Part shown: positions 14,185 to 28,200 of the stretch, in pieces
Position numbering within the stretch: position 1 is the stretch's first letter
Layout: the number at the start of each line of letters is the position of its first letter
Position numbers and translations under genes: made by a program
The notes under the pieces: model-generated
What the model was told of the DNA's origin: nothing
Databases searched by the model: none
Seen by the model: only the letters and a program-made list of their open reading frames with translations
Source of the DNA: Giardia intestinalis
Lineage: Eukaryota
Assembly: GCA_000002435.2 (NCBI GenBank)
Contig: CM018790.1
Strand: one strand, 5' to 3'
Length of the DNA: 64,000 nt

Positions 14185-17100
14185 TCATTGCGCCTCTCCC
14201 TTATCTTGCGGAGGATCGCGCACAATGACTCCTGGAATGGATATCTCCTTCCCAAATGCTGTGATATCTGCAGAGTACTGACTAAGCTTCTGCTTTTCAC
14301 AATAGATGAGTTTCCAGTCTTCGAGAGCAGATGCGCCATTGCCAGAGCCGAAGACAGCACTTGCGTTGCTGATCTTTGGCATGACAATCTTCTTCTTTGT
14401 CTTTATCTTTGTTCCAAGACAACTATCAACAATTATATTAACAAGCCCACGAGACATCTTATCGATAAGCTTTGTTACCACCTCTGTACTGTGTTCTAGG
14501 GTTGGCGATGCATTAATTTCTACCAGCCATACCTGCAGGGCGCTGTCAATGATGAAGTCATACCCAAGCAGTTCAAAGTTGTTATCCGCTGAGGTGAGCT
14601 CGAATCGTGCCGCCTGCACGGTGGTTATTATTATTCGCGCCATGTCGTAGAGAATGCGGTCAGCTATTGTGTTGAACACGGCCTTGTCAGTGTACTGCGA
14701 GTGCTTGTAATCCTCCGCTTTGATGCGCGATTGGTTGCCGTAGAGGTCAGGTCCGTAGAGCTTGGCGTGCTCGCTGGTCTCATACTTCTGCTTATATGGA
14801 CGTGATTTAGCTTTTCTTTTGTCCGTCTCCACAGTCTCTGCATCCTCATCGTTATTTTTATTTTTATTTTCTGTTACTATTAATTTGGATTGGGATTTAG
14901 ATTGGTATCTGGATTTAGATTGATTTTGCGCACGCAAAATATCTACCATTTCGGTACCCTCTGTGCTTGTTGGTGGTGCTCTTATCTTAAAGTCTTCTGT
15001 TTGATGGTAACAGAAATACTGAGGATCCCTTTCTAGGAGGAGGTCCAACCATGGCTTGTCACCAATCATTTTATCCAGATAGTCGGAAAAACTCGTCCAG
15101 TCCCACATGTTTCCCTTACCGAGGAACTCGTCGTCCTTACCAAACTGCTCCGAGCACTTTTGAACGCTGTTGTTGCTGAGGTGGATATACGGGTTCTTCA
15201 AATCGTGTTCATCTAAGCTGTACTTTGACGAGCAAAACCTTAAGTACGGGCTCGTCCACTGAAATATTATCAGCGGGTTGATAGAGCTGACGAACACCCA
15301 CTGACGGATGTCAAACTTGTACCCGCCCAGTAGAAGGGGTGTTTCCAAGTACCGCTGTATTATGTAACGATCAGAGCTGTTGACAGCCGCTTCGTCTGGA
15401 AGCTCAAACTCACTGTCTGTTCCGCCGTGCTCGTCCAGGACTAAGAGCTTGAGGATGTCGTTAGAGCAGAAGATACCGCGACCCCTTGACTTTGCCCCAG
15501 GCTTTCCGATAAAGATATTCTGCATGGAGCTTCTGATCGACACTTGAGGTGCGTGCTGCAGATACACTCCAAGCGCGCGCACCATGTGGTGGTATTCCTG
15601 GGCAGTTGCCGCATTAGCATGTATTTCGTCAGTAGCTGCAGAATATGGATGGCTGAACTGTTCCTTTCTCCGCGAACTGAAGGAATCTGGAGCAGGAGCA
15701 GCGATGGATTCTGAGCCATTAGCAACAGGACCTGCAGTGGTAGCGGGAAACAGTGTTCCCGGTCTGGGTCTACCTTTGGGCCCAGACCCTGCTTCTCCAT
15801 CGGAGGAAAACAAGCTCTGAGGAGATATGGCGCCATAGAAGTCCGGAAGCTTGTACTGACGCGGCAGCCTGGGGAGTATAATGCCCATTTCATACTGCGT
15901 TACGGGAGGCACAACAAAGCGCGTCTTCTTATCCAACTCTAAGTCATGGTGAAGAATGGTAGACGTCAGATACAAGAGGTGTCTATAGGAGATCTGTAGC
16001 TGGTGTATACTGTACTTAAAGCAACTAGAAGGGGTTAGTTCTGTTCGCTCGTTTGTTTCGGCAGTGGAGCTCTCCCAGTCGATCATGGAATCACAGATCT
16101 TGGGGTCGCGCACCCAGTTGAAGCAAATCTTTACTACCTCAGTATTCAGAAAGTCCTCGAGGAAGTCTAGCGTCTCATCATTGGCGCTCATTAATTGCAA
16201 TTGCGCTTGGCTATTGGCGTCGGATGCATTGACTACCCGATACGATTGTGGGAAGAACCTGGTTATGTCTATATCAAAGTTGTTAGGGGACAGGGTCTTG
16301 GTCAGGCCGCTCTTCGTGGTTAGCACTTGTGAGTTAGTGAAATGGTTTGTGTACTGCCACGGATGCAACCTTGTGCGATCAATATCTGCTACTTTAATGG
16401 CAAACTTGATATTAAAGTCTGTTGGGGTGTCCTTGTCGGGGTTAACTACCCAGCCTTTGTCTAGAAAGTATTTTTTGAAGTCCACGTATCCTCCCTTGAA
16501 GATAACGATGTTCCGGGGGTGACTGGGGCCTGACGAATCGCTCGCCAGGCGGACCGTAATGTATGATAGCCTCTTTTCAAACTGCTTGAGAGTGGAGATG
16601 ACAAGGGATCCATACCGGGCCATAATAGCATTATCAGTGCTAGGCACCATAAACATGCTGAAAGAATGCTGTGCCCGTACTGTTTTGTCGGCCTTGCTCC
16701 CTGTTTCTTGTGAATTTGAGGACTTCGATGGTTTTGAGGACTTCAGTGGGTTTTTAAGCAATGGAAGATCGGGAATCTCGGCAGTGCTGCTTGTTAAGGA
16801 GGTTGGAGGGTCTTCATCAGACGTATCGTCGTATCCGTCCTCCAAGGAAATAGAAACCTTCTGAGTACAACGAATTCGCTTAACAATCGATGCATTTATC
16901 AGTCTAGCTTTTATTAGGGGATCAGTGGCCTTTGGAGCTGGATCCAGAGCCATAAAGTTTCTGGTGTAGTGTACAACAGAGCTCAATCCATAGACATACT
17001 CTCCAAAGAAAGGAACGGTACTTTCTAAGACAGGAAGAAGCTTCTGAAGCTTTGGAGAAGGTGCTTGTTTAAGCTCCTGCCCTACAGGCTTCACAATCAT

Positions 17101-17412
17101 AGGTGATCGAGAGATTGACGGTATTTCCCTGTTGGCCGCAGCCTGAGTCATGTGTGCTGCTCCATCAGCTCTTGGCCTGGAAGGCTGCAAGCGCACACTG
17201 CTCACTATCATGGAACCTGGTAGGGACGGCGAGGCCCGCAATTTGGTGCCAGACGTTGCTCGCCGCTTCTTTTTCTGCTTGTGTGGCTTGCCATGTGTTC
17301 TTGCTGTCGTATTACTGCGTCCAGGAGGAGAAGACGACCTACTACTCATCAAAACCGGAAATAATGTGATAAAGGCAGGAAGAAATTTATCACAAACGCC
17401 ATCAGCTCCCAT
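14185..17412 (-). CDS. Tubulin-tyrosine-ligase-like (TTLL) family protein, a putative tubulin polyglutamylase or glycylase, with long low-complexity extensions
   Basis: TTL-domain signatures: QYTNHFTNSQVLTTKSGLTKTL (compare NHFPG..L.RKD.L) and FELLGYDFIIDSALQVWLVEINASPTL (compare F.L.G.DF..D....PWL.EVN.SPS). ATP-grasp-like core. Confidence 0.8.
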   Translation of the reverse strand: MGADGVCDKFLPAFITLFPVLMSSRSSSPPGRSNTTARTHGKPHKQKKKRRATSGTKLRASPSLPGSMIVSSVRLQPSRPRADGAAHMTQAAANREIPSISRSPMIVKPVGQELKQAPSPKLQKLLPVLESTVPFFGEYVYGLSSVVHYTRNFMALDPAPKATDPLIKARLINASIVKRIRCTQKVSISLEDGYDDTSDEDPPTSLTSSTAEIPDLPLLKNPLKSSKPSKSSNSQETGSKADKTVRAQHSFSMFMVPSTDNAIMARYGSLVISTLKQFEKRLSYITVRLASDSSGPSHPRNIVIFKGGYVDFKKYFLDKGWVVNPDKDTPTDFNIKFAIKVADIDRTRLHPWQYTNHFTNSQVLTTKSGLTKTLSPNNFDIDITRFFPQSYRVVNASDANSQAQLQLMSANDETLDFLEDFLNTEVVKICFNWVRDPKICDSMIDWESSTAETNERTELTPSSCFKYSIHQLQISYRHLLYLTSTILHHDLELDKKTRFVVPPVTQYEMGIILPRLPRQYKLPDFYGAISPQSLFSSDGEAGSGPKGRPRPGTLFPATTAGPVANGSESIAAPAPDSFSSRRKEQFSHPYSAATDEIHANAATAQEYHHMVRALGVYLQHAPQVSIRSSMQNIFIGKPGAKSRGRGIFCSNDILKLLVLDEHGGTDSEFELPDEAAVNSSDRYIIQRYLETPLLLGGYKFDIRQWVFVSSINPLIIFQWTSPYLRFCSSKYSLDEHDLKNPYIHLSNNSVQKCSEQFGKDDEFLGKGNMWDWTSFSDYLDKMIGDKPWLDLLLERDPQYFCYHQTEDFKIRAPPTSTEGTEMVDILRAQNQSKSRYQSKSQSKLIVTENKNKNNDEDAETVETDKRKAKSRPYKQKYETSEHAKLYGPDLYGNQSRIKAEDYKHSQYTDKAVFNTIADRILYDMARIIITTVQAARFELTSADNNFELLGYDFIIDSALQVWLVEINASPTLEHSTEVVTKLIDKMSRGLVNIIVDSCLGTKIKTKKKIVMPKISNASAVFGSGNGASALEDWKLIYCEKQKLSQYSADITAFGKEISIPGVIVRDPPQDKGEAQ

Positions 17413-17548
17413 GGTGGGATCGGCGTATGCACGCTAGTGGGACCATTATGGACCACTATGCACATAGATAACGATTCCAGTTAACGACTCGCATCCCTTT
17501 CTCTTTCCAATAACAATTCTCCGGCATCTCAAAGGTTAAAAAGGCACT

Positions 17549-19171
17549 ATGGTGGTTTCCCCCCATCATCTGAAGCGCCAGCGAATACCGCGCTTTCAAC
17601 GTATAGAGCCTGTTTCAAACCGCATGGTTGTGGACTCTCTCTCCAAAACGCGCAGGTCTCGATCATACCAACGCGGCTCTATTGCGATGCCTCACCTTTA
17701 CAATAACAGGGTGTATGCTCCTCCCCGGCCAAAAGTGGAGATGATGGGGGTAGAGCCCACAACCTGTGAGATAGCTCTCATATTCATCAACAGCATATTC
17801 GCTGCATTTTCCTCCATGTATGTTAATGACTCCATAGCGCCTTTGAGTGTTTACTTGACAAAGTACTACGAAAACATAAATGATGAGCTTATTGGCTGGC
17901 TCTCATCGGTGATATTCTGCCCGTCTCTCTTCATGGCCCTTGTCATTGCGCCCTTCATAAACCGCTATGGGCCCATGAATGTCGGCATTTTTTGCCATAT
18001 CTGGTTCATAGTAACAACTATCATAATGCCCTTCATTCAACACAACTATGTGGCTCTGCTGATCATGCGTATTGTCTTTGGTTTGCTATCCGAGCCTTCA
18101 TGGCTCGTACAATCTGCGCTCATTGCAAAGTATATGCCTTCTAGATTGGAATCTCTGGGCTTTGGGGTCTGTATGAGCATCTCAACCTCAGCGAATCTAT
18201 TGGGATTTGGGTTTATCCCGCCCCTATTTTCAAAGATTGACATCCACAAAATTCAGCATCCCATAAATAGACAAGATCCATTATTTCTCGAGTTTGAAAA
18301 TAAAATCAAATTGGCCTACTGGCTCAATGTTGTCGTGTGTGTAATCTCCTTCGGTATTTATCTTGCATGCGGACTACCTCTGTTGCGCATTGACAAAGCC
18401 ATCAAAAAGATCAACCAAGAGCGCGAAGACCAGTCGCTGGCGTTTAGACCGGAGCTTCCTGTCTATATGGATAAAAAGATTTTGCCCACACTCCCCAGCA
18501 AGAGCAATCGCATACCCTTCCTATACAAATTGAAGCATGCATTTATGCTTCCTATGGACTACTGGCCGCCAAATTTAGCTTTTTCACTTCTCCTGGGGTG
18601 TGCATACGGTTGCCAGACGCTGATACTGAGTTATCTCTCTGCAAACAAGAATGGCATTTCAGAGGAAACCGTGGAATATTTTGGCATAGTCCGATCAGTC
18701 ATGAGCGTTGTCGGAGGGCCGGTTAGCGGTTTGCTGGTTGGAGCTATCGGACAGAGGCCACTTCTAACCCTCCTAGGGTATATCATGGCCATTGCAGGCT
18801 TTGTACTAACTATCTTCCTCCCTGACTGGTACAATATGATTCCAATGGCAATGATAGGGTTTGTGGACGGTGGGAGTGCAGCGTTCACCAAGAGTTTGCT
18901 CAGCAGCGTGGTGCCGTATGACCAGCTCAGCATCGCATACGCCATCGACGAGAGCCTGCTCAATCTCTGGCAGTTTGCTCTCCCGCCGATTGCCGGCCGG
19001 ATAAGTGACGTGATGAAGGAGACAGACAGCGCTGGAAAGCCAACCGAGCGGTCCTTTGGTACCCCGCTGTTTTATTCAATTGCAACAGGAATAGGCCTAA
19101 TACCCGCTGTGACTCTCGTCATCAGAGACCGGACCCGCTTTCGTGGGAAGCTGAGCCTCAGACCCGAGTAA
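17549..19171 (+). CDS. Multi-pass membrane transporter, major-facilitator-superfamily-like (540 aa)
   Basis: About 12 hydrophobic helices in a 6+6 arrangement with a central hydrophilic loop. The basic N-terminal extension suggests the true start may be an internal Met (MMGVEPTT). Confidence 0.5.
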   Translation: MVVSPHHLKRQRIPRFQRIEPVSNRMVVDSLSKTRRSRSYQRGSIAMPHLYNNRVYAPPRPKVEMMGVEPTTCEIALIFINSIFAAFSSMYVNDSIAPLSVYLTKYYENINDELIGWLSSVIFCPSLFMALVIAPFINRYGPMNVGIFCHIWFIVTTIIMPFIQHNYVALLIMRIVFGLLSEPSWLVQSALIAKYMPSRLESLGFGVCMSISTSANLLGFGFIPPLFSKIDIHKIQHPINRQDPLFLEFENKIKLAYWLNVVVCVISFGIYLACGLPLLRIDKAIKKINQEREDQSLAFRPELPVYMDKKILPTLPSKSNRIPFLYKLKHAFMLPMDYWPPNLAFSLLLGCAYGCQTLILSYLSANKNGISEETVEYFGIVRSVMSVVGGPVSGLLVGAIGQRPLLTLLGYIMAIAGFVLTIFLPDWYNMIPMAMIGFVDGGSAAFTKSLLSSVVPYDQLSIAYAIDESLLNLWQFALPPIAGRISDVMKETDSAGKPTERSFGTPLFYSIATGIGLIPAVTLVIRDRTRFRGKLSLRPE

Positions 19172-19173
19172 AT
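19167..19173 (+). terminator. Putative Giardia polyadenylation signal AGTAAAT overlapping the TAA stop of the transporter gene
   Basis: The sequence cccgAGTAAATgg matches the AGTRAAY consensus, with the stop codon embedded in it. Confidence 0.4.
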
Positions 19174-20617
19174 GGCTGGAGCCACATAAAGACTTCATGA
19201 TATCCGGAGGAAAGTTCCGGTTTTAGCAGTAGCCAGACGTGAGTTATGGATGCGCATTGACGATGCAGGACGCTAAACCCCGTTGATTACTTCTAAACAA
19301 TACACCCTACGAAAGCTCGTGCATGCGATGATGTACTCTATCTCGCAGCGATAACTCATCGATATGGCCCAGGTGCTTTCCACTGTTGCGCAAATACTTA
19401 TATGTACACTGCCAAACTGAGGGGCAAAGATGGCTTAACAGAACATAGTAGCAATTGATGGCTGCAGAAGGCTGCTTGTAGCGTCACCAGTGTAGGTTGA
19501 TACAGGTCCATAAAGACACTGTCCCGGAGAATGCTTCAGCAATTTTACAGTGAGACAGGCATTTCACCGAATGTGCTGTTTACTAGGGTGTAGAATATCT
19601 ACAATAATAGCTTCAGTGGTGCTAGTGAGGCGGTTCTCAGGATGATCGACTGCGGGGTTGGTACTGTGCAGAGTGCAGCCCAGTGACTTGTGTCCTTCAT
19701 TCAACACCGTTCCAGTACTACGTTCGTTAGGAGAGGTGATGGGTGCCTGGAGTAGTCTGACGAGCTCCCTGGCTGTTGATCTTTGAGTGTGGTCTAGAAC
19801 AAGCACTTTCTTGAGGATACTCCTTATGAGGTCATCTTCAACTGCACTCAGGCTGAGCCTTCACCCGTCGACGAAGACATTCCTCAGGTGCTGCTCCCAG
19901 GAGATCAGGCATTTGAAAGCGGAGAGCTCGTAGGCAATAGCACCGAAGACCCGACGTCGGACGCAGGACCGGTCTCGCCCCTGAGGTGGGTCTTGGGGGC
20001 CATGTATGCTTGGTTCCCAAAATGGCACTCCCATTGTGCAGGACATCCTTCAGAGCCCGAAGTCCGCAAGAGCTGAGCCTGCCATCTCTGCTGGCATCGA
20101 CCTTGTCGGGGTCGTGAAGGTAGGCGAGGATGATGGCAATCTGCTCCATGATGGAGAGCATTGCATCGATAGGGTTGTCGGTTCTTGCACAATCGGTAAT
20201 CGCATCTTGAGGCACCGATCCCAGCGGTCCATGACGATGAAGACAGATCAGGCGTCTCTGAGCACCTGGTAGTGCCTAATGGCATCTAGGTGTGAGCGTC
20301 TGGAAATGGTGGCCAGCACGACCCAGTGGCCTCCGTGAGCTTCCCACTCTGAGCCTTGGATAACTACCTATCACATGGACAGTACCAAAACTGCCCACAT
20401 CAAGCACCCCTCCTCGCATCGATGCAGCTCGTCGGCGGGCACAGGATATCGAGTGCACCGTCCCCGGCCATGACGGTATCAACGGCACTGTGCAGAGCAC
20501 GCTCGGGGGCAGGGGAGCGGCCACCCCTGCTCCCGGTTGCAGGCTGGCTGGCGAAGTATACGAGGCGCACCCGCTTGTCAGGCAGCTGCACCACTAGTGA
20601 CGCATTTACTACCTAAG
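19174..20617. other. Roughly 1.45 kb GC-rich region with only short, mutually overlapping ORFs on both strands. No confident gene; possibly a decayed gene.
   Basis: Lies between convergent stop codons (transporter + strand, VSP - strand). Composition is unlike the short AT-rich intergenic regions elsewhere in the window. Minus frame 2 is open from about 20524 to 19838 except for one stop near 20276. Confidence 0.3.
20604..20610 (-). terminator. Putative polyadenylation signal AGTAAAT (minus strand), about 8 nt downstream of the VSP stop codon
   Basis: Reverse complement of atttact, matching AGTRAAY, sits immediately 3' of ...CRGKA-TGA, as is typical for VSP genes. Confidence 0.5.
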
Positions 20618-22816
20618 TCACGCCTTCCCCCTGCAGAGGAACCACCAGCAGAGGAAGCCCACGAGGCCCCCCACGACAGCGACCACAGCGACGGAGATCC
20701 CCGCGATGGCCCCCGTGGAGAGCCCGCTCCTGTTGGTGTTCTGTATGAGGTAGCAGAGGACAGGCCCTTTATTGTTGGTTGGGGGAGCGCAGTTGGCGCA
20801 GTTGGCGACGCCGGTGATGGATCCGCCGTCGCTCTTGTCGCATGCTATGCACTTTTCTTTGGACAGGTAGTACCCTGCAGCGCACACCGTGCACTTGGTG
20901 GCGTCGTCCGCATTGCACTCGGAGCACCCAGTGGCGCAGGGAACGCACTTCTTAGTGTTACCGCCAGTCTTAGCATATCCAGCCTTGCACGTGTCGCACT
21001 GGTCCTGGCTGGTGCACGTCTTACATCCGGCCGAGCAAGTGATGAGCGCGCCGTTATTCAGTTTGTACCCGTCGGCCGGAGTCTGACAGGTATCGCCGGC
21101 CGGTGCTGCCTCCTCACAGACGTTCTTTCCAGGGAACTTAGTCGTCTCGTAGCAGCCCCCGTTCATACGAAGAAATCCGTTGGTGCATGAATTACACATA
21201 CCCTTGGCAACGCTTCCAGCCTTACAAGTGGCTGCAGCACGGACAGTTGTTGAGCTACAGACGCCATTTTGAGGATACTCTGTCGCTGTGGCGCACTCAG
21301 AGCAGTAGCTAGCACCATCGATAGTGAGCCCACACGTCTTGCATGCTCCTGCTCCTGTGCCCGTTGCGCATCCAGCTCCGCACGTGCCCTTAGTACCGTC
21401 GTCCCCGTACCTGAGTGCTTTTCCGGTGGGACACTCGGTGCAGTCGCTGGCAGTGCCTGCGCTGCATGTCTTGCAGCTTTCGTGGCACGGAGAGCATGCG
21501 TCGCCGTTTTTATAGAATCCGTCGCTGCATGCTTGGCACTGCCCTTGCCCATCGCAAGTCTTGCAGTTAGCCGCAGTGCACTCTTTACAGATTTTCTTTG
21601 CTCCTTCGGTAGCTCCATAGTAGTTTCCAATCTTAGCGCAGCTGTCTATGCACTGGCTTGTCGGCGTGAGATATGTGCTACTATCACAGTCTGTGCAGAC
21701 CTCGTTCTCCTTTCCTTCGTTGCTGCACGCCTTGCATCCGGGGGTCTTGCAGTTGCTTACCGCCTCGCACGTAGTTTTGTCGGCACTAGGCTTGTATCCA
21801 TCCGTGCAGGCGGAGCATGTAACGAGGGCAGCCCCTGATCGGCCACTAACCAGAGCACACGTGGCGCAATTGGCAATTCCGTCGGTGCTGTCATTACAAG
21901 GGAGGCATTTATTTCCTGCACTGCTGTCATCCTTGGGGAAGAAGCCGTCTTTGCATTGGTCTTTTTGTACGCACGACGTGCCTTCGCTTGTGGTTTTCAG
22001 GTAGTTGTTATCGGTGCATTTTGTACACTTGATCTTCTTAGATTGCTCATCGTAGCTGCAGGTGTCGCAATTGGCAACGCCACCATTGAGGTTATCGCTG
22101 CAAGAAACACATTTGTTGCCATTCTCAGAATCATCAACTGCAACGAACTTATTAGTGCTACCAGAATCGCACTGGGCTTTATCCACACACGTATTATCCT
22201 TGAGGTACTTATCCTGGCCGCACCTGGTGCACTTGGCGTCTCCGCCGGCAGCGTCTGTCAGCGCCGCCCCGTCGCATCTCTCGCAGTACTGCACCCCCCT
22301 GTACGTTTTGCCGCTGTCGGTGAACCCGGTCGTGTCCGAGCACGATACCACAGAGTCCTTGGTATTCGCCCTCAGCGGGTTGAGGAAGTACCCCGGGGCC
22401 GCCTCGGTGCATACGCCATCTCCGTCGGAACTTAAGCACAGGCTGTGTCCAGGAAGGCCTTCTCCGCTGGAATAACAGCCGTCCTTGTACATGAATGAGT
22501 TGCCTCCGCACGTCGTACAAGCCCCGCTGGCGTGTGCTTTGCAAAGAGCTTTTTTATCCGCCTGCGTCTCCACGTCCTCACAAGCACCGTTCACGGGGGC
22601 GTAGTTTGCTCCGTTGCACTCGGAGCAGTATTGTTCTTGGCCGATGGTGACGCCACACGTTTTACACTTTCCATCGTCAGCTTCTTGGGTGCAGGCTGTC
22701 CGTGCCAGCTGAAGGATGACGATCGCGAGCAAAAATCTGCCGAACATTGGGCCGCCGACCTGCTGGGCGGCGCCGGCCTTCCCTGGGAGAGGCGGGGTCG
22801 TCTGATGTGCCGACAT
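20618..22816 (-). CDS. vsp: Variant-specific surface protein (VSP): cysteine-rich type I membrane protein with many CXXC motifs, a GGCY motif, a C-terminal TM helix and an invariant CRGKA tail
   Basis: The C-terminus reads ...GISVAVVAVVGGLVGFLCWWFLCRGKA then stop. There are dozens of CXXC repeats (CKTCG, CSECN, CTTCG and others) and NGGCYETT. A probable signal peptide starts at the internal Met (MFGRFLLAIVILQLARTA, ATG near 22747), 23 codons after the first ATG at 22816. Confidence 0.9.
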   Translation of the reverse strand: MSAHQTTPPLPGKAGAAQQVGGPMFGRFLLAIVILQLARTACTQEADDGKCKTCGVTIGQEQYCSECNGANYAPVNGACEDVETQADKKALCKAHASGACTTCGGNSFMYKDGCYSSGEGLPGHSLCLSSDGDGVCTEAAPGYFLNPLRANTKDSVVSCSDTTGFTDSGKTYRGVQYCERCDGAALTDAAGGDAKCTRCGQDKYLKDNTCVDKAQCDSGSTNKFVAVDDSENGNKCVSCSDNLNGGVANCDTCSYDEQSKKIKCTKCTDNNYLKTTSEGTSCVQKDQCKDGFFPKDDSSAGNKCLPCNDSTDGIANCATCALVSGRSGAALVTCSACTDGYKPSADKTTCEAVSNCKTPGCKACSNEGKENEVCTDCDSSTYLTPTSQCIDSCAKIGNYYGATEGAKKICKECTAANCKTCDGQGQCQACSDGFYKNGDACSPCHESCKTCSAGTASDCTECPTGKALRYGDDGTKGTCGAGCATGTGAGACKTCGLTIDGASYCSECATATEYPQNGVCSSTTVRAAATCKAGSVAKGMCNSCTNGFLRMNGGCYETTKFPGKNVCEEAAPAGDTCQTPADGYKLNNGALITCSAGCKTCTSQDQCDTCKAGYAKTGGNTKKCVPCATGCSECNADDATKCTVCAAGYYLSKEKCIACDKSDGGSITGVANCANCAPPTNNKGPVLCYLIQNTNRSGLSTGAIAGISVAVVAVVGGLVGFLCWWFLCRGKA

Positions 22817-23252
22817 GCACTAACAACGGCTACTGAACGTTAAAGTAACCAGCATTCACACTGGTATTTCGTTACTGACAGAGTAAAGTATGATTATGCG
22901 CTAGAGATAAGGTCCCAAGTCTGGATTTGCATTAGGATGAGCGAGTACACCACCAATTAATTAAGACAGCGTAAACACACTACAATTATATAACCAATAT
23001 CAAATGAAGCTGATTAGATGCGTACCTTTATAGGCTCCATGGCCATATGTACTCCTGACTTGGAATTTAAATGAATTTTAACAGCTCAGTGTGCACCTAG
23101 TTCACATGTCAAGTTGCCAATTGTCAAGTCGACCAGATGAGTGACAGCTTAACGGCAGGTGTAATCAGCATACTAAGAGATGACTAGGTGATGGGGGCTC
23201 ATATTAAATTAAAAAGCTTGCCCATCAACCACAAACAAATTTTTTGCCAAAA

Positions 23253-24464
23253 ATGTCTCTCTCCTCGGACTTCATCCGTACACCCATTTTCGATAAGATT
23301 CTGTCCACGATAACAGCCAGCATAACAGACTTTAGCACTCGGCAAGCGCCTCTTTTAGCCTATTCGACCATCGAGCCCTCTATGCAGAACGTTAAGAGCG
23401 CATCTGCCGCTGCTGCTCCTGCTGCTCTTTCTCCGTACGTCATAAACCTCATAGACGACACCATATCTAGATTCAAAAAGCATCCTTTTAGACTTAGTTT
23501 TGATATCAATCATCATCAACCTGAGAAGTTAGAGGCCCTTAACGCCAGTATTGTGTTCCAGTATCCATATAAACTGAGTCCAGTTGACCGAAAGAAGCTC
23601 TCTCCTACAGATCCTATTCTGGGAAGTTGGGCCAAAGGGGTCATCTGCGCGCACGTTCAGGGTTGGAAGGGAAGACGGATGGCCAGGTCCTTGATAACTC
23701 CACGAGATGTGCTTCCATTGACAGAGATGCACCTGTATCGTTGCCAGCAGGCGGTTCTTCGCGCCCGCAAGGAGCAGAATGTTATCCCAGTCAACGTGCA
23801 GACGGGGCAACCTGCGGTTTCCGACAAGAAGAAGGTTCTGTCGTCAATACTCACTACTCCTGGATCCACTCCCGTGGCCAGTACACCCTCTGGATCAGGG
23901 CTCAATCTCCAACTTATCCGAGACAATCGCGCAATTCTCAAATCTGTTCTGAAAGAATTCAATGTCCAGTTTGAGAAGCGGTTTAATAGAGAGCCCAGTA
24001 GGACAGAGAAGGAGGCCCTCCGTCCCCTCTATGTTGAATACAAAACTCTTAAGGTGTTTCTTCCGGATGACGACGACGATGATAAGCCGAGCAAGTCCAC
24101 AGGACGTGAGAAGCGTAATCCTACGACTGCAGGATCTGGAAAGTTGGGTTCGGCTGAATCCGAAGCCCTTATTCTTTCTAAGGTTGCACAGGTTCGTGCA
24201 ACTGTTGAAGAAGCGAATAAGTTCTTGCAACGGCCAGTGCCTACGGATCAGGCGCGTCTAAAGCAGTTCAAACGAGAGGTACAGAAGTGTCTCTTTGAAC
24301 TGAAGGAGCAATACGAGACCGTACACGCTGATGTTAATGCTTACAAAGTCAAAACAGGCAAATACCCCGGGGATCTGACATCTAAATGGGCACAGAATTG
24401 TGTTGATACGTATCATATGCTTTATAGCGCATATGAAAAGATCAAGCGGAAGCTGGACGCGTAG
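23253..24464 (+). CDS. Hypothetical protein (about 403 aa from the first ATG)
   Basis: The track start at 23244 is TTG. The first ATG is at 23253 (ccaaaaATGtct). Includes a poly-Asp patch (PDDDDDDKPSK) and a C-terminal helical region. Confidence 0.55.
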   Translation: MSLSSDFIRTPIFDKILSTITASITDFSTRQAPLLAYSTIEPSMQNVKSASAAAAPAALSPYVINLIDDTISRFKKHPFRLSFDINHHQPEKLEALNASIVFQYPYKLSPVDRKKLSPTDPILGSWAKGVICAHVQGWKGRRMARSLITPRDVLPLTEMHLYRCQQAVLRARKEQNVIPVNVQTGQPAVSDKKKVLSSILTTPGSTPVASTPSGSGLNLQLIRDNRAILKSVLKEFNVQFEKRFNREPSRTEKEALRPLYVEYKTLKVFLPDDDDDDKPSKSTGREKRNPTTAGSGKLGSAESEALILSKVAQVRATVEEANKFLQRPVPTDQARLKQFKREVQKCLFELKEQYETVHADVNAYKVKTGKYPGDLTSKWAQNCVDTYHMLYSAYEKIKRKLDA

Positions 24465-24592
24465 CTGACCTCTTGCATCACATAAACTCTCAGTTTTGTC
24501 TTTCACAGCGTCCCCGCTACACTTGCAACACTGCCCAATTGTCCTCTTATGTACGACCCAGGCATTTACTTTGTGCTCGGCACGTCCTCGGG

Positions 24593-25084
24593 TTAGCAAA
24601 GCGGCCCAAGTATGTTGAGTGCACACTTATCCACGCCATCTACTACGTACGTGTTCATTCTAAATCGCACCAATGTCCCCGGGCGTAGCCTGAAGGAGAC
24701 AAGAAGGCCCATGGAGGGACGACCAGGGGTCCGAACCCACTCCCTTAGGTCCTCAATAGAGCAGTAGCTTGCTCCAGTATCTAGATCCTTCACTGAGACA
24801 TAGTCATCAACGTTGACGTCTATCTGGCGTGCCGGGATGCGATCAAGAGGTATGGTCTTTACCTGAGAAAGAGGTTGGCTGAAAGAGAATTTCAGACGGA
24901 ATCTGTCCGCTCCTCTGTATGTACCAATTATCTCTGAGGATATCCAATTGGATATGACGCCTTTTTCGTCGTGAAGAACCACATCAGACTGTCGTGCCGC
25001 CGTACTAAAGTAGACGTTTTCCTTAGTGTAGATGCATGCTGCTCTGGCGATCGTGGGCATACGAATCTTCTCTGGCGCTTGCAT
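24593..25084 (-). CDS. Small hypothetical protein (163 aa)
   Basis: Begins at a true ATG and the sequence is protein-like, but there is no A-rich initiator context and no recognised motif. Confidence 0.4.
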   Translation of the reverse strand: MQAPEKIRMPTIARAACIYTKENVYFSTAARQSDVVLHDEKGVISNWISSEIIGTYRGADRFRLKFSFSQPLSQVKTIPLDRIPARQIDVNVDDYVSVKDLDTGASYCSIEDLREWVRTPGRPSMGLLVSFRLRPGTLVRFRMNTYVVDGVDKCALNILGPLC

Positions 25085-25287
25085 GGGTGCTCTCTGTCAA
25101 GATGATCAGACTCTTGAGCCCTTGGAGATTTGAAAAACAAATGTTAAGCGATCTGGGCTGCTATAGCCGGTGTACATCCCCACACATTTTTGCACACAGT
25201 TTAAAGCGTCTCGTGCTTTCCGACTTAACGAGTCTTCTTTTACATTACCAAAAATAAGAAACCTGTTTCTGATCTGTTTTAGCGACA

Positions 25288-28200
25288 ATGTGGGATAATC
25301 AAGCAGCTACCACTCCACGGCAGACGCCATTTAGTGACGACGCACATCACCGTGATGAGGTAGGGCTTGTTGGTACAGGACTTGTTAGAAAAAAGGGACT
25401 TGGGCTTATGACTACGATCCTCGTAGTTCCTCTTCATCAGCATCCGCCAGAGGTACAGATAAAGATTGCGCATGCTATGCGTGACTGCTTGAATATCACC
25501 AATCCCTATTTGGCCAGTTATGTAGACGTTACTCACAGCATGCGAGAAGCTAAACTTACCATTGAGACGGAGTTCTTTGGCCGTGGTTCTCTTCGGAAAA
25601 AGATCGACTCTCACTTTAAGCATGGTCTAATTTTTCCTGAAGCAGAGATTTGGAACGTGGTAGCACACATTGCTGCTGGGCTTGCCTATCTTCATAGCCC
25701 TCTTCCACTGCCAGGAAAGAAGGCTGGCTTTCTTCTTCATCTTGGTCTGTCCCCGGACTCATTAATGGTTTATAGTGACGCAGAGTACAAGCTCACAGCG
25801 TATTCTATCAGACAACTTCTGTTTCGGCCCATCCCGCCCGCGGAGTATGCACGGATAATCGGTATCGAATCGGAAAATGCACGTTGGTATATGGCCCCAG
25901 AGCTGCGTCGGGCCTTTTCCAGGTATGGTAGTTTGTGTCAATTGAGTACTAAGTGTGACATTTGGTCTCTGGGCATATTGTTACTGGATATGGTGTCTCT
26001 AGCGCTTTACAGAGACAACACCTCCGATCCTTCGACGGAGCTGGTGAAGAACGACAGCACAATTCCTGCTGTTATTATACTGCCCAATGATGACCGGCCA
26101 CTCAGAGTCAAGATGGACGATCTGAGTGAAGAGCATAATAATAGTACGGATGACGAAGATGCCAAGAGGGTTTCTACGACTTCCTTGTCTTCTTCCGTCG
26201 ACTACCATGGGTTCTGTCATCCTCCACGGTCTCTTCTTAAAACACTCTTGGACGACGGCTTGGACACACCTTATTCAAAGGAGCTTATCACCCTGATCAA
26301 GCAGTGTGTCTCAGAAGATCCCTCGGAGAGGCCTTCTGCCACAATCATATGCAAGCTCCCGTCCGTTCAGGAGGCTTTTTTGCGCTTAGAGGCACATAGG
26401 CTTGAAGATCACAAGTTATTACTGCAGGCGTTGCGGTTGAACGATGTGGCAGCTATACGAACATATATTAGAAGCTTTGATGCCAGTCCTTCGGATATTC
26501 TAAAAGACATCCTCAGTCCATGCTATACTCCGTACATTCAGATTTTCAGCGAGCGCATTCTCCTAAAGAATCTCTTTGTTACACTACCGAGCAGATCCGG
26601 AACCCCGACCTATATTTACACAGACCTCATGCAGGCAGCCGAGTGTGGTGATATACCTGCAATAGAAGCGTCCATCAATCGGGACTTTGGCTATATGTAC
26701 ATGGGATTTTCCAGTGGAACAGCTCTAATGATGGCTGCAAGGGAAGGAAACACAGAGTGTATAAAGCTCTTATTGGCAGAAGTCGGGATAGTAACGGCCA
26801 AAGGAGAGACAGCGCTAATGTATGCGGCTCAGAACGGGTGTCTAGCGGCTACGCAACTCTTACTTTGTGAGGCAAGAAAGCAGAATTATTATGGTGAAAC
26901 TGCTCTTATGTATGCTGTGCAGAACGGATTCGTTCACATAGTCAACCTACTAGCTGCTCGAGAGGCCCAACTTCAGCGAAAGGATGGGCTGACGGCCCTA
27001 ATGCTTGCTGCCAAGCTCGGTCGTGGAAGATGCGTGGCGATCCTAATGCATCACGAGGCGCAAATGCGTTCTTCTTTGGGAGAAACTGCTTTGGAGCTCG
27101 CTCTGAAGTATAGACATGGGCACTGTGCCGACCTGCTTCTGGATTATGAATCTGGCCTGATTTGTAGCAACGGAGCGTCTCCCCTGAGGTTTGCAGTAGA
27201 TAATGGAGCTATCAAAGTTGTCCCGCGTCTATTATATCTTTGCAGATCAATGGAATCGTCCTACTTCATTAATATGATCTATGTGCTGGTTTCAGGGCAA
27301 ACTGCGGAATGCTATGCCAGTCTTCTCATTGCTTACAATCAGCTACTCGACAAGAAACTCTCGCTAACTGTCACTGAGCCAGAGGCAAAGCGTGCCCATC
27401 AAGACAACTGCATCAATGCGTTTTGCTGGGCCCTTAATATGATGAGACCAGATTGTGCATGGAAGGTTCCCATTTTAGTCGACCTCACGGTGCCCCCTGC
27501 TGCAACGTCTGAGGAGCTCTGGGCCTCTGTTCTTGTGCCATATATGGAGAAAAGAGGCATTAGCTGTCAGCTCATTGAGGCCCTTCTTAATTATTCGATT
27601 ATGAAGAAGGATCACGAAATGGTGTGGCATTTGACGCAGTATATTGCAGAGCACACAGATACCATAATCGTCAGCACATGGAAGAGGCACGGAGATCGGG
27701 TTAACTTTAAAACTCGATTAATGGAAAATGCTGAGAACGGGGATCTTTCCGGTGTGCTTGCCAACATGGACCAGTTAGGCTACGTGTATGGAAATGACAC
27801 GGCTCTCTTGCTTGCGGCCAAAAATCATCACTTTGACTGCATTAAGCTTCTCTTGTGTGAGCAAGGCATTACTGGGCCAGACTGTGTCACAGCCCTTATG
27901 GTTACTGCCTGCAAGGGCGATGTCGAATCGCTAAAGCTCCTGTTAACAGAATCGTCCCGTTGTGATGAAGATGGAAACTCTGCTCTGATGCTTGCAGCAG
28001 AAGCAGGACATGACGCATGTGTGCAGTTGCTTATTAAGAGGTGCAAGGTTTACCAAGATCGTGCGGGGCGAACGGCGCTGATTCGCGCCGCGGAGGCCTG
28101 CAATCTAAGCACTGTTAATCTTCTCAGGAACGAAATTGGAGTTGGAGGAATGACAAGGCTTATGGTGTCTGCTGTTCTGGGAGAGGTGAATGGCGTCAAG

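What the first reader, a model, noticed from the sequence alone, without database searches (positions are those of the whole stretch)
20604..22816. A bona fide VSP gene in an otherwise housekeeping neighbourhood, which also identifies the organism
The ORF ends with a hydrophobic helix followed by CRGKA and a stop, and it carries dozens of CXXC motifs and a GGCY motif. This combination is specific to Giardia variant-specific surface proteins, the antigenic-variation family that is expressed one at a time and silenced by an RNAi-like mechanism. An AGTAAAT polyadenylation motif sits 8 nt after the stop. There are two candidate start codons: the first ATG (22816) adds a 23-aa non-hydrophobic leader ahead of the signal peptide, while the second (near 22747) begins directly with MFGRFLLAIVIL. 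Which one is used affects secretion. The gene sits alone among core genes (transporter, TTLL, NEK) rather than in a VSP cluster.
Basis: partly seen in the sequence, partly recalled or inferred. Interest (0 to 1): 0.6.

Follow-up and report, generated by a model that had tools for sequence, protein, structure and literature searches.

The report
Known Giardia surface-antigen gene vsp417-4

Summary
Window 20618..22816 (-) is an intact 732-codon ORF with 84 Cys, 29 CXXC, one GGCY, a C-terminal transmembrane helix, CRGKA and a stop. It scores 648 bits against Pfam VSP.

It is not new. The 709-aa product from the second ATG is identical to XP_001708164.2, KAE8302112.1 and AAD04339.1 ("VSP with INR", Giardia WB). 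The 732-aa form is the superseded XP_001708164.1. Adam 2010 lists it as vsp44 = "417-4", GL50803_113450. Seven neighbouring genes are also exact WB proteins.

The second ATG (22747) is the likely start, for three reasons:
- It lies in the VSP initiator CAatgTT.
- The first ATG is AGG at the homologous site in assemblage E.
- The 69-nt leader is the least conserved stretch between A1 and A2 and carries frame-shifting indels.

AGTAAAT is part of an exact 17-nt VSP-specific extended poly(A) signal.

No other VSP lies in the 64 kb, but solitary VSPs are common. This slot also holds a bona fide VSP in A2 (DH) and E (P15), and its coding sequence is a mosaic of 417-family paralogs. Published re-analysis of RNA-seq found it the dominant VSP transcript in one WB clone.

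Verdict: correct, ordinary, already known.

The parts
20618..22747 (-). Most likely coding sequence of vsp417-4 (709 aa plus TGA), starting at the Inr ATG
   Evidence: Identical to XP_001708164.2 / KAE8302112.1 / AAD04339.1. Pfam VSP 648 bits.
22748..22816 (-). 69-nt in-frame 'leader' from the first ATG. It was annotated as coding in the old model (XP_001708164.1) and is most likely 5' flank, not translated.
   Evidence: The first ATG context is GCatgTC, which does not match the Inr. The homologous triplet is AGG in P15. WB-DH identity is 75% with 14-nt and 1-nt indels, against 97% in the flank and 95% in the CDS start. The peptide is not hydrophobic, mean KD -0.47.
22743..22749 (-). VSP initiator / Kozak-like element CAatgTT around the second ATG
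   Evidence: Sequence confirmed. The PyAatgTT consensus comes from Adam 2010. It is found in 135 of 136 WB VSPs. vsp44 is listed as CAATGTT.
22691..22747 (-). Putative signal peptide MFGRFLLAIVILQLARTAC
   Evidence: N-terminal hydrophobic segment. Conserved in paralogs and orthologs. No dedicated signal-peptide predictor was run.
20726..22690 (-). Cys-rich extracellular domain with 29 CXXC motifs, built as a mosaic of blocks shared with different 417-family paralogs
   Evidence: CXXC counts. Blockwise identity.
21149..21160 (-). GGCY motif
20636..20725 (-). Conserved transmembrane region GLSTGAIAGISVAVVAVVGGLVGFLCWWFL
   Evidence: Hydropathy. Invariant columns.
20621..20635 (-). CRGKA cytoplasmic tail
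   Evidence: It is the defining VSP feature.
20602..20618 (-). VSP-specific extended polyadenylation signal ACTTAGGTAGTAAATGC.
   Evidence: Exact match to ACUUAGRUAGURAAYRY and to ACTTAGGTAGT[AG]AA[CT]GC. It is the only exact hit in the window. It is conserved in the DH and P15 homologs.
20610..20637 (-). Putative miR2-type target site spanning the last codons, the stop and the start of the 3' UTR
   Evidence: RNAduplex gives -20.7 kcal/mol, with the seed CCUAA:UUAGG in the 3' UTR. That is in the top 0.5% of 34-nt segments of the window. The site geometry follows Saraiya and Wang 2008. This is a prediction only.
19172..20617 (.). 1446-nt ORF-poor, relatively GC-rich (53.6%) 3' intergenic region
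   Evidence: No annotated gene lies between KAE8302111 and KAE8302112. There is no Pfam, VSP or Rfam similarity. The median VSP intergenic length is 1280 nt. Positions 19586-19601 are the empty site of a 3.1-kb RT-bearing insertion present in DH.
22817..23252 (.). AT-rich (39% GC) locus-specific intergenic region shared with the divergent FAM13A-like gene
   Evidence: 97% identical to DH and about 83% identical to P15 at the syntenic locus. It is absent from the non-syntenic paralog loci L001 and L002.

Best explanation
This is vsp417-4 (VSP44, GL50803_113450), an intact and expressible member of the TSA417-like subfamily (clade II) of variant-specific surface protein genes of Giardia intestinalis assemblage A1. 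The sequence is indistinguishable from the WB reference.

Inferred mechanism, from family knowledge:
- Transcription starts at or within a few nucleotides of the CAatgTT initiator, so the mRNA has almost no 5' UTR.
- Translation starts at the second ATG (22747).
- The MFGRFLLAIVILQLA... signal peptide directs the protein into the secretory pathway.
- The product is a type I membrane protein with a CXXC-rich ectodomain that coats the trophozoite. It is anchored by the conserved transmembrane helix, with the 5-residue CRGKA tail in the cytoplasm.
- The transcript is cleaved and polyadenylated about 15-40 nt after the stop, under the VSP-specific extended signal.
- Only one VSP is displayed per cell. 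The others are held down by some combination of epigenetic and small-RNA or post-transcriptional control.

Shown here: the identity of the gene, all sequence hallmarks, the start-codon evidence, positional conservation of the slot in A2 and E, and the mosaic (gene-conversion-like) make-up of the coding sequence.

Shown only in the literature: expression of this gene.
For: - Identity: exact match of the 709-aa and 732-aa forms to WB records, and of seven neighbours to consecutive WB proteins KAE8302109-116.
- Catalogue entry: Adam 2010 supplement lists vsp44 = 417-4, AF065168, GL50803_113450, clade II, CAATGTT, 732 aa, 84 Cys, 29 CXXC. My own counts are the same.
- Family match: Pfam VSP 648 bits.
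- Hallmarks: Inr, PAS, TM and CRGKA verified by coordinates.
- Start codon, comparative: the first ATG is absent in P15 and the leader is not conserved.
- Start codon, background: Giardia 5' UTRs are 1-14 nt and ribosomes do not scan. 135 of 136 WB VSPs start at PyAATGTT.
- Expression: 74-79% of VSP transcripts in one WB clone, and it is listed among the VSPs most often dominant in culture. Sequences attributed to the WBC6 antigen TSA417 matched this gene in GiardiaDB, and a review lists VSP44 as identified in WBC6.
- Synteny: the DH locus L005 is collinear, and the P15 locus L003 shares the FAM13A-like gene and the 5' flank.
- Mosaicism.
Against: - No transcript 5' ends or small-RNA reads were available, so use of the second ATG and any silencing at this locus remain inferred.
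- The upstream ATG is in frame and conserved between A1 and A2. The net indel in the leader is 15 nt, so the frame is preserved.
- No signal-peptide predictor was run.
- The miR2 site is a thermodynamic prediction only.
- Other sub-assemblage AI isolates might be identical here, so WB specifically is not proven.
Confidence: 0.95

Rival explanations
1. The first ATG (22816) is the real start. The protein would then carry a 23-residue non-hydrophobic N-terminal extension ahead of an internal signal or anchor sequence, as in the original 2007 gene model.
For: - The ATG is in frame with no intervening stop.
- It is conserved in DH and in the WB paralog 417-6, and the net 15-nt indel keeps the frame.
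- The old RefSeq model XP_001708164.1 and the Adam 2010 table use 732 aa.
Against: - Its context is GCatgTC, with no Inr.
- The homologous triplet in P15 is AGG.
- The leader peptide differs completely between WB and DH across a 14-nt/1-nt indel pair, and the leader is the least conserved segment, 75% against 95-97%.
- The non-syntenic DH homolog has an unrelated leader and the P15 homologs have none.
- The current RefSeq and GenBank models and the originally cloned gene start at MFGRF.
- 135 of 136 WB VSPs start at the Inr.
Confidence: 0.04
2. It is a silent or decaying VSP copy, or a non-variant Cys-rich membrane protein (HCMP/CRMP), rather than a working antigenic-variation gene.
For: - It is isolated from other VSP genes.
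- In assemblage B the gene next to the MFS ortholog is a VSP-like protein with a non-CRGKA tail and no Inr.
Against: - The ORF is intact, with a signal peptide, TM, CRGKA, Inr and an exact extended PAS. The last three are reported to separate VSPs from CRMPs.
- It is the dominant VSP transcript in a WB clone.
- It is linked to the WBC6 surface antigen in a proteomics study.
Confidence: 0.01

Closest known systems
vsp417-4 / VSP44 / GL50803_113450 (GenBank AF065168, AAD04339.1; XP_001708164) of Giardia intestinalis WB
   Same: 100% identical protein in both the 709-aa and 732-aa forms. Same length, Cys count, CXXC count and Inr type. Same neighbours in the same order.
   Different: Nothing detectable. 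The window simply is this locus.
vsp417-6 / VSP45 / GL50803_113439 (P0003), a WB paralog listed on the same chromosome
   Same: 71% identical overall, with blocks of 96-100% identity (aa ~121-180 and ~331-450 of the 709-aa form). The 23-codon upstream leader is the same apart from one residue. It has the same Inr type and CRGKA.
   Different: The middle (aa ~200-360) and C-proximal (aa ~560-720) ectodomain blocks are only 27-57% identical. It lies at a different locus and is not in this window.
TSA417 / VSP417-1 / VSP5 (GL50803_113797; P0027), founding member of the subfamily
   Same: Same clade II and same architecture. Blocks of 83-93% identity in aa ~391-540.
   Different: Low identity outside those blocks, and a TAatgTT rather than CAatgTT initiator.
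Syntenic VSPs of assemblage A2 (DH, L005:16228-18453) and assemblage E (P15, L003:2552-5140)
   Same: They occupy the same slot, flanked on one side by the FAM13A-like gene (and in DH also by the MFS transporter on the other), in the same orientation relative to it. Both carry CRGKA and an extended PAS. P15 starts at CAatgTT and DH has MFGRF at the aligned ATG.
   Different: - The DH protein is only 70% identical to WB 417-4 but 92% identical to WB 417-6.
- The P15 protein is about 41% identical and is followed by a second Cys-rich gene.
- DH has a 3.1-kb RT-bearing insertion downstream of the VSP.

Membership tests
Giardia variant-specific surface protein (VSP) | C-terminal cytoplasmic pentapeptide CRGKA immediately before the stop | tested here: met
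   aa 728-732, nt 20621-20635, followed by TGA. The criterion is stated.
Giardia variant-specific surface protein (VSP) | Conserved single C-terminal transmembrane domain with a preceding GxxxG-type stretch | tested here: met
   GLSTGAIAGISVAVVAVVGGLVGFLCWWFL. It is one of only two hydrophobic segments and is nearly invariant among homologs.
Giardia variant-specific surface protein (VSP) | Cys-rich (about 10-13%) ectodomain with many CXXC motifs, plus GGCY | tested here: met
   11.5% Cys. 29 CXXC against 9.5 +/- 2.7 expected. GGCY at aa 553.
Giardia variant-specific surface protein (VSP) | N-terminal signal peptide | tested here: inconclusive
   A hydrophobic MFGRFLLAIVILQLA follows the second ATG directly, which is consistent with a signal peptide. 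No SignalP-type predictor was available.
Giardia variant-specific surface protein (VSP) | Initiator / Kozak-like element PyAatgTT at the start codon | tested here: met
   CAATGTT at 22749..22743. Consensus given.
Giardia variant-specific surface protein (VSP) | Extended polyadenylation signal ACUUAGRUAGURAAYRY within about 0-15 nt of the stop | tested here: met
   ACTTAGGTAGTAAATGC at 20618..20602, overlapping the stop by one base. Consensus given. It is the only exact hit in 64 kb.
Giardia variant-specific surface protein (VSP) | Sequence homology to the family profile | tested here: met
   PF03302, 648 bits, E = 6.5e-195. All 134 homologs found are Giardia VSP-family proteins.
Giardia variant-specific surface protein (VSP) | Mutually exclusive, switchable surface expression | not testable with these tools
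   Literature only. GL50803_00113450 made up 74-79% of VSP transcripts in one WB clone, and sequences attributed to the WBC6 antigen matched it.
vsp417 (TSA417-like) subfamily, clade II | Listed as a named member with matching properties, and shares high-identity blocks with 417-1 and 417-6 | tested here: met
   Adam 2010 supplement row vsp44. Blockwise identity.

The most novel reading that the evidence does not exclude
The locus could be a positionally fixed VSP 'slot' that predates the split of assemblages A and E. It lies next to the FAM13A-like gene, on the side facing the MFS transporter.

In this reading a cassette, running from about 25-35 nt upstream of the Inr ATG to the end of the extended poly(A) signal, is overwritten piecemeal by gene conversion from dispersed 417-family paralogs. 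The conserved locus-specific 5' flank would explain why this gene is among the few VSPs most often dominant in culture.

Two observations fit this. The 5' flank is 97% identical to DH and about 83% identical to P15, and it contains a nearly invariant 54-nt block at 22950-23003. The DH gene in this slot is 92% identical to WB 417-6 but only 70% identical to WB 417-4.

Positionally conserved VSPs and VSP recombination are each already reported in general terms. Only the link between the conserved flank and preferential expression would be new.
Probability: 0.12. Interest if true: 0.4.

Novelty: already known. Interest (0 to 1): 0.1.

Why it matters
For the scan, this mainly fixes the origin of the window: the Giardia intestinalis assemblage A1 (WB-type) chromosome segment carrying GL50803_113450. 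It also shows that the first-stage reader can recognise a VSP from raw sequence.

Biologically the gene is a catalogued antigen. A re-analysis of published RNA-seq names it among the VSPs most often dominant in culture. Nothing here changes what is known about antigenic variation.

The modest added value is a comparative argument for the second ATG, drawn from the syntenic A2 and E loci. There is also a concrete example of a positionally conserved VSP slot whose coding sequence has been reshuffled among paralogs.

Tried and rejected
- **Closest hits as positional orthologs.** I tested whether the best hits in P15 (P0004, locus L001) and DH (P0005, locus L002) are positional orthologs. Their flanks and neighbouring proteins are unrelated to the window. 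The true syntenic loci were found through the neighbours instead.
- **Hidden gene in the 3' gap.** I looked for a pseudogene, VSP relic, kinase fragment or ncRNA in 19172-20617. Pfam on seven ORF fragments gave no hit at E <= 1. tblastn with all window proteins and 120 VSP homologs gave nothing significant, and there is no self-similarity. Rfam at E <= 1 on 17000-25500 gave nothing. I treat the region as the long intergenic stretch typical of VSPs.
- **Unconstrained miR2 duplex.** A duplex search over 153 nt gave a discontinuous, meaningless structure. I replaced it with a local-site test.
- **N-terminal hydrophobic position in homologs.** Counting this across 120 homologs depended too much on annotation and threshold to be useful, so I did not use it.
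- **Exact look-ups.** Contig look-ups for the WB proteins P0001 and P0003 found no record. The distance to the paralog 417-6 therefore could not be measured.
- **Solved structures.** A PDB sequence search found no solved relative.
- **Paper searches.** One search on the bare number 113450 returned only irrelevant papers, and Giardia plus 113450 found none.
- **Not run.** Structure prediction and the large profile searches were skipped because identity to a known gene made them unnecessary.
Full report
**1. The observation**

The minus strand of window 20618..22816 carries one uninterrupted ORF of 732 codons. Its translation ends ...GLVGFLCWWFLCRGKA followed by TGA.
- It has 84 cysteines (11.5%) and 29 CXXC motifs. 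Residue shuffles give 9.5 +/- 2.7 CXXC, with a maximum of 24 in 5000 shuffles.
- It has one GGCY, at aa 553.
- It has only two hydrophobic segments, aa ~25-43 and aa 698-728.
- AGTAAAT lies at 20610..20604, 7 nt after the stop.
- In-frame ATGs lie at 22816 and 22747.

**2. What it is**

Pfam gives a single hit, PF03302 "Giardia variant-specific surface protein", at 648 bits and E = 6.5e-195. A search of 5.8 billion proteins returned only Giardia VSP-family proteins.

An exact-sequence look-up settles the identity.
- The 709-aa product from the second ATG equals XP_001708164.2, KAE8302112.1 and AAD04339.1 ("VSP with INR", Giardia intestinalis WB).
- The 732-aa product equals the older XP_001708164.1.

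The supplementary table of Adam et al. 2010 (PMC2996952) lists vsp44 = "417-4", GenBank AF065168, GL50803_113450, chromosome 2, clade II, Inr CAATGTT, 732 aa, 84 Cys, 11.5% Cys, 29 CXXC. These numbers match my own counts.

Seven other ORFs of the window are exact WB proteins with consecutive accessions KAE8302109-116, all on a 1,539,535-bp contig. They are:
- hypothetical protein GL50803_10802
- TTLL6
- an MFS transporter
- the FAM13A-like GL50803_17298
- GL50803_10791
- a NEK kinase
- the 6939-aa GL50803_35341

The window is therefore the WB-type (assemblage A1) locus of a gene first cloned in the late 1990s. From memory, not checked here: Ey, Darby and Mayrhofer described vsp417-4 in Mol Biochem Parasitol in 1999. 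The related 417-1 and 417-6 papers appear in the reference list seen.

**3. Family hallmarks**

A 2022 preprint re-analysing all WB Cys-rich genes (bioRxiv 10.1101/2022.03.07.483299) gives the defining VSP features. They are a signal peptide, many CXXC motifs, the conserved transmembrane domain, the CRGKA tail, the PyAatgTT initiator/Kozak-like element at the start codon, and the extended poly(A) signal ACUUAGRUAGURAAYRY.

All are present here:
- CAATGTT at 22749..22743.
- ACTTAGGTAGTAAATGC at 20618..20602, beginning on the last base of the stop codon.
- The transmembrane region at 20636-20725.
- CRGKA at 20621-20635.

The 15-nt core of the poly(A) signal has one exact match in the 64 kb, and it is this one. 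The same element follows the stop in the DH and P15 homologs. It was already described for WB and P15 in PMC3091692.

**4. Which start codon**

Six lines of evidence favour the second ATG (22747).
1. It sits in the Inr, whereas the first ATG has the context GCatgTC.
2. Adam 2010 notes that in 26% of Inr-bearing vsp genes the Inr ATG is not the first in-frame ATG. After re-annotation, 135 of 136 WB VSPs start at PyAATGTT.
3. Giardia mRNAs have 1-14 nt 5' UTRs and their ribosomes do not scan (PMC3610916). A transcript initiated at the Inr therefore cannot include the first ATG.
4. At the syntenic P15 locus the surrounding sequence is conserved (GTTAGTGCA-GG-TCAGC), but the triplet is AGG, not ATG.
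5. Between WB and the syntenic DH locus the 69-nt leader is 75% identical and carries a 14-nt and a 1-nt indel. These shift the frame across most of the leader: HQTTPPLPGKAG in WB against RRTALLGGAGLPWKRW in DH. By contrast the 436-nt flank upstream is 97% identical with no gaps, and the first 57 coding nt after the second ATG are 95% identical.
6. The non-syntenic DH homolog has an unrelated leader and the P15 homologs have none.

The current RefSeq and GenBank models and the original GenBank protein all start at MFGRF. What remains untested is the actual transcript 5' end. I put the long form at about 4%.

**5. Context**

tblastn finds no other VSP in the window, so the gene is solitary on this scale. 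That is common. Adam 2010 states that many vsp genes exist independently, and the preprint reports VSPs scattered over all five chromosomes.

The surroundings are typical of a VSP island.
- The CDS is 57% GC and the 1446-nt ORF-poor 3' intergenic region is 53.6% GC. The flanking genes are 48-49% GC.
- The median VSP intergenic length is 1280 nt, against 79 nt genome-wide.
- The 3' gap contains nothing recognisable.

**6. Synteny and mosaicism (added here)**

I used the neighbours to fetch the orthologous loci.

*DH (assemblage A2, locus L005).* The locus is collinear with the window at 96-98% identity outside the VSP. It has a 741-aa VSP in the same place and orientation.

*P15 (assemblage E, locus L003).* It shares the FAM13A-like gene and the 5' flank (82.8% over 1.9 kb). 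A bona fide 862-aa VSP with CAatgTT, CRGKA and the extended PAS sits in the slot, followed by a second Cys-rich gene without CRGKA.

*GS (assemblage B, locus L007).* A VSP-like gene lies 1.5 kb from the MFS ortholog. It is on the other strand, lacks an Inr, and has a long non-CRGKA tail.

PMC3091692 says VSPs are rarely syntenic but that a few are positionally conserved. This appears to be one of those few.

Sequence and position disagree.
- The DH gene in this slot is 92% identical to WB 417-6 but only 70% identical to WB 417-4.
- WB 417-4 is a patchwork. Aa 121-180 are about 100% identical to 417-6. Aa 181-330 are about 100% identical to TSP752 and to a 409-aa WB VSP. Aa 451-540 are 90-100% identical to a DH VSP at another locus.
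- Homology with non-syntenic paralogs stops about 26 nt upstream of the Inr ATG and about 22 nt past the stop.

This fits segmental gene conversion among 417-family members, which Adam 2010 already documented statistically for vsp subgroups.

**7. Expression and regulation**

Expression of this gene is reported only in the literature.
- GL50803_00113450 accounted for 74-79% of VSP transcripts in one WB clone. It is named among the four VSPs most often dominant in culture.
- In a proteomics study, sequences attributed to the WBC6 antigen TSA417 matched both GL50803_113797 and GL50803_113450. A later review lists VSP44 as identified in WBC6.

I could not test small-RNA mapping. I reconstructed the miR2 sequence from the mutant given in PMC2583053. 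A local duplex of -20.7 kcal/mol spans the last codons, the stop and the first 3' UTR bases (20610-20637), with the seed pairing to UUAGG inside the poly(A) signal. That places it in the top 0.5% of window segments and matches the site geometry those authors describe. It is a prediction only.

The control of VSP exclusivity is described in the retrieved papers as involving epigenetic and post-transcriptional mechanisms. From memory: the Cys of CRGKA is palmitoylated and the Arg is citrullinated (Touz and colleagues).

**8. Verdict**

The thing itself is a catalogued gene of the reference genome. Novelty is "already known" and interest is low. The start-codon question is answered as far as sequence comparison allows. 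The positional conservation and paralog mosaicism are illustrative rather than new.

Noticed in passing
L005:12038-15204 (DH, assemblage A2); empty site at window 19586-19601: DH carries a ~3.1-kb insertion between the MFS gene and the VSP. It is flanked by a perfect 16-bp direct repeat, GGGTGTAGAATACTTA. It has 169-nt terminal inverted repeats (88% complementary) and an ORF with a reverse-transcriptase domain (RVT_1). WB has a single copy of the target sequence. It looks like a retroelement insertion specific to the A2 lineage, about 1 kb downstream of the VSP.
   Followed up: partly
L005:16228-18453 compared with window 20618-22816 and P0003: The VSP occupying the syntenic slot in DH is 92% identical to WB vsp417-6 but only 70% identical to WB vsp417-4. 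Orthology by position and orthology by sequence therefore disagree. WB aa ~200-360 and ~560-720 look replaced from other paralogs.
   Followed up: partly
window 22950-23003: A 54-nt block (TTGATATTGGTTATATAATTGTAGTGTGTTTACGCTGTCTTAATTAATTGGTGG, minus strand) lies in the AT-rich intergenic region between the VSP and the divergent FAM13A-like gene. It is nearly invariant between WB, DH and P15, although the surrounding flank is only about 83% identical to P15. There is no Rfam match. It is absent from the two non-syntenic VSP loci examined (L001, L002).
   Followed up: no
L007:13158-14285 (GS, assemblage B) and L003:5869-8325 (P15): In GS the gene next to the MFS ortholog is VSP-like but ends ...FLCKTRRAGVSSSTTTLIHSKSA and lacks the Inr, so it is of the HCMP/CRMP type. 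In P15 the bona fide VSP in the slot is followed by a second Cys-rich gene ending ...LYKQSTVASTQ.
   Followed up: partly
window 28876-49695 (-): A single 6939-codon ORF, identical to hypothetical protein GL50803_35341 of WB. The DH ortholog (6942 aa) is labelled 'Transporter'. I did not examine it further.
   Followed up: no
window 14185-17412 (-): The longest ORF of the TTL-family gene is 1075 aa and equals the old model XP_001708169.1. The current WB model (XP_001708169.2, TTLL6) is 1054 aa. This is another case in this window where re-annotation moved the start codon downstream.
   Followed up: no
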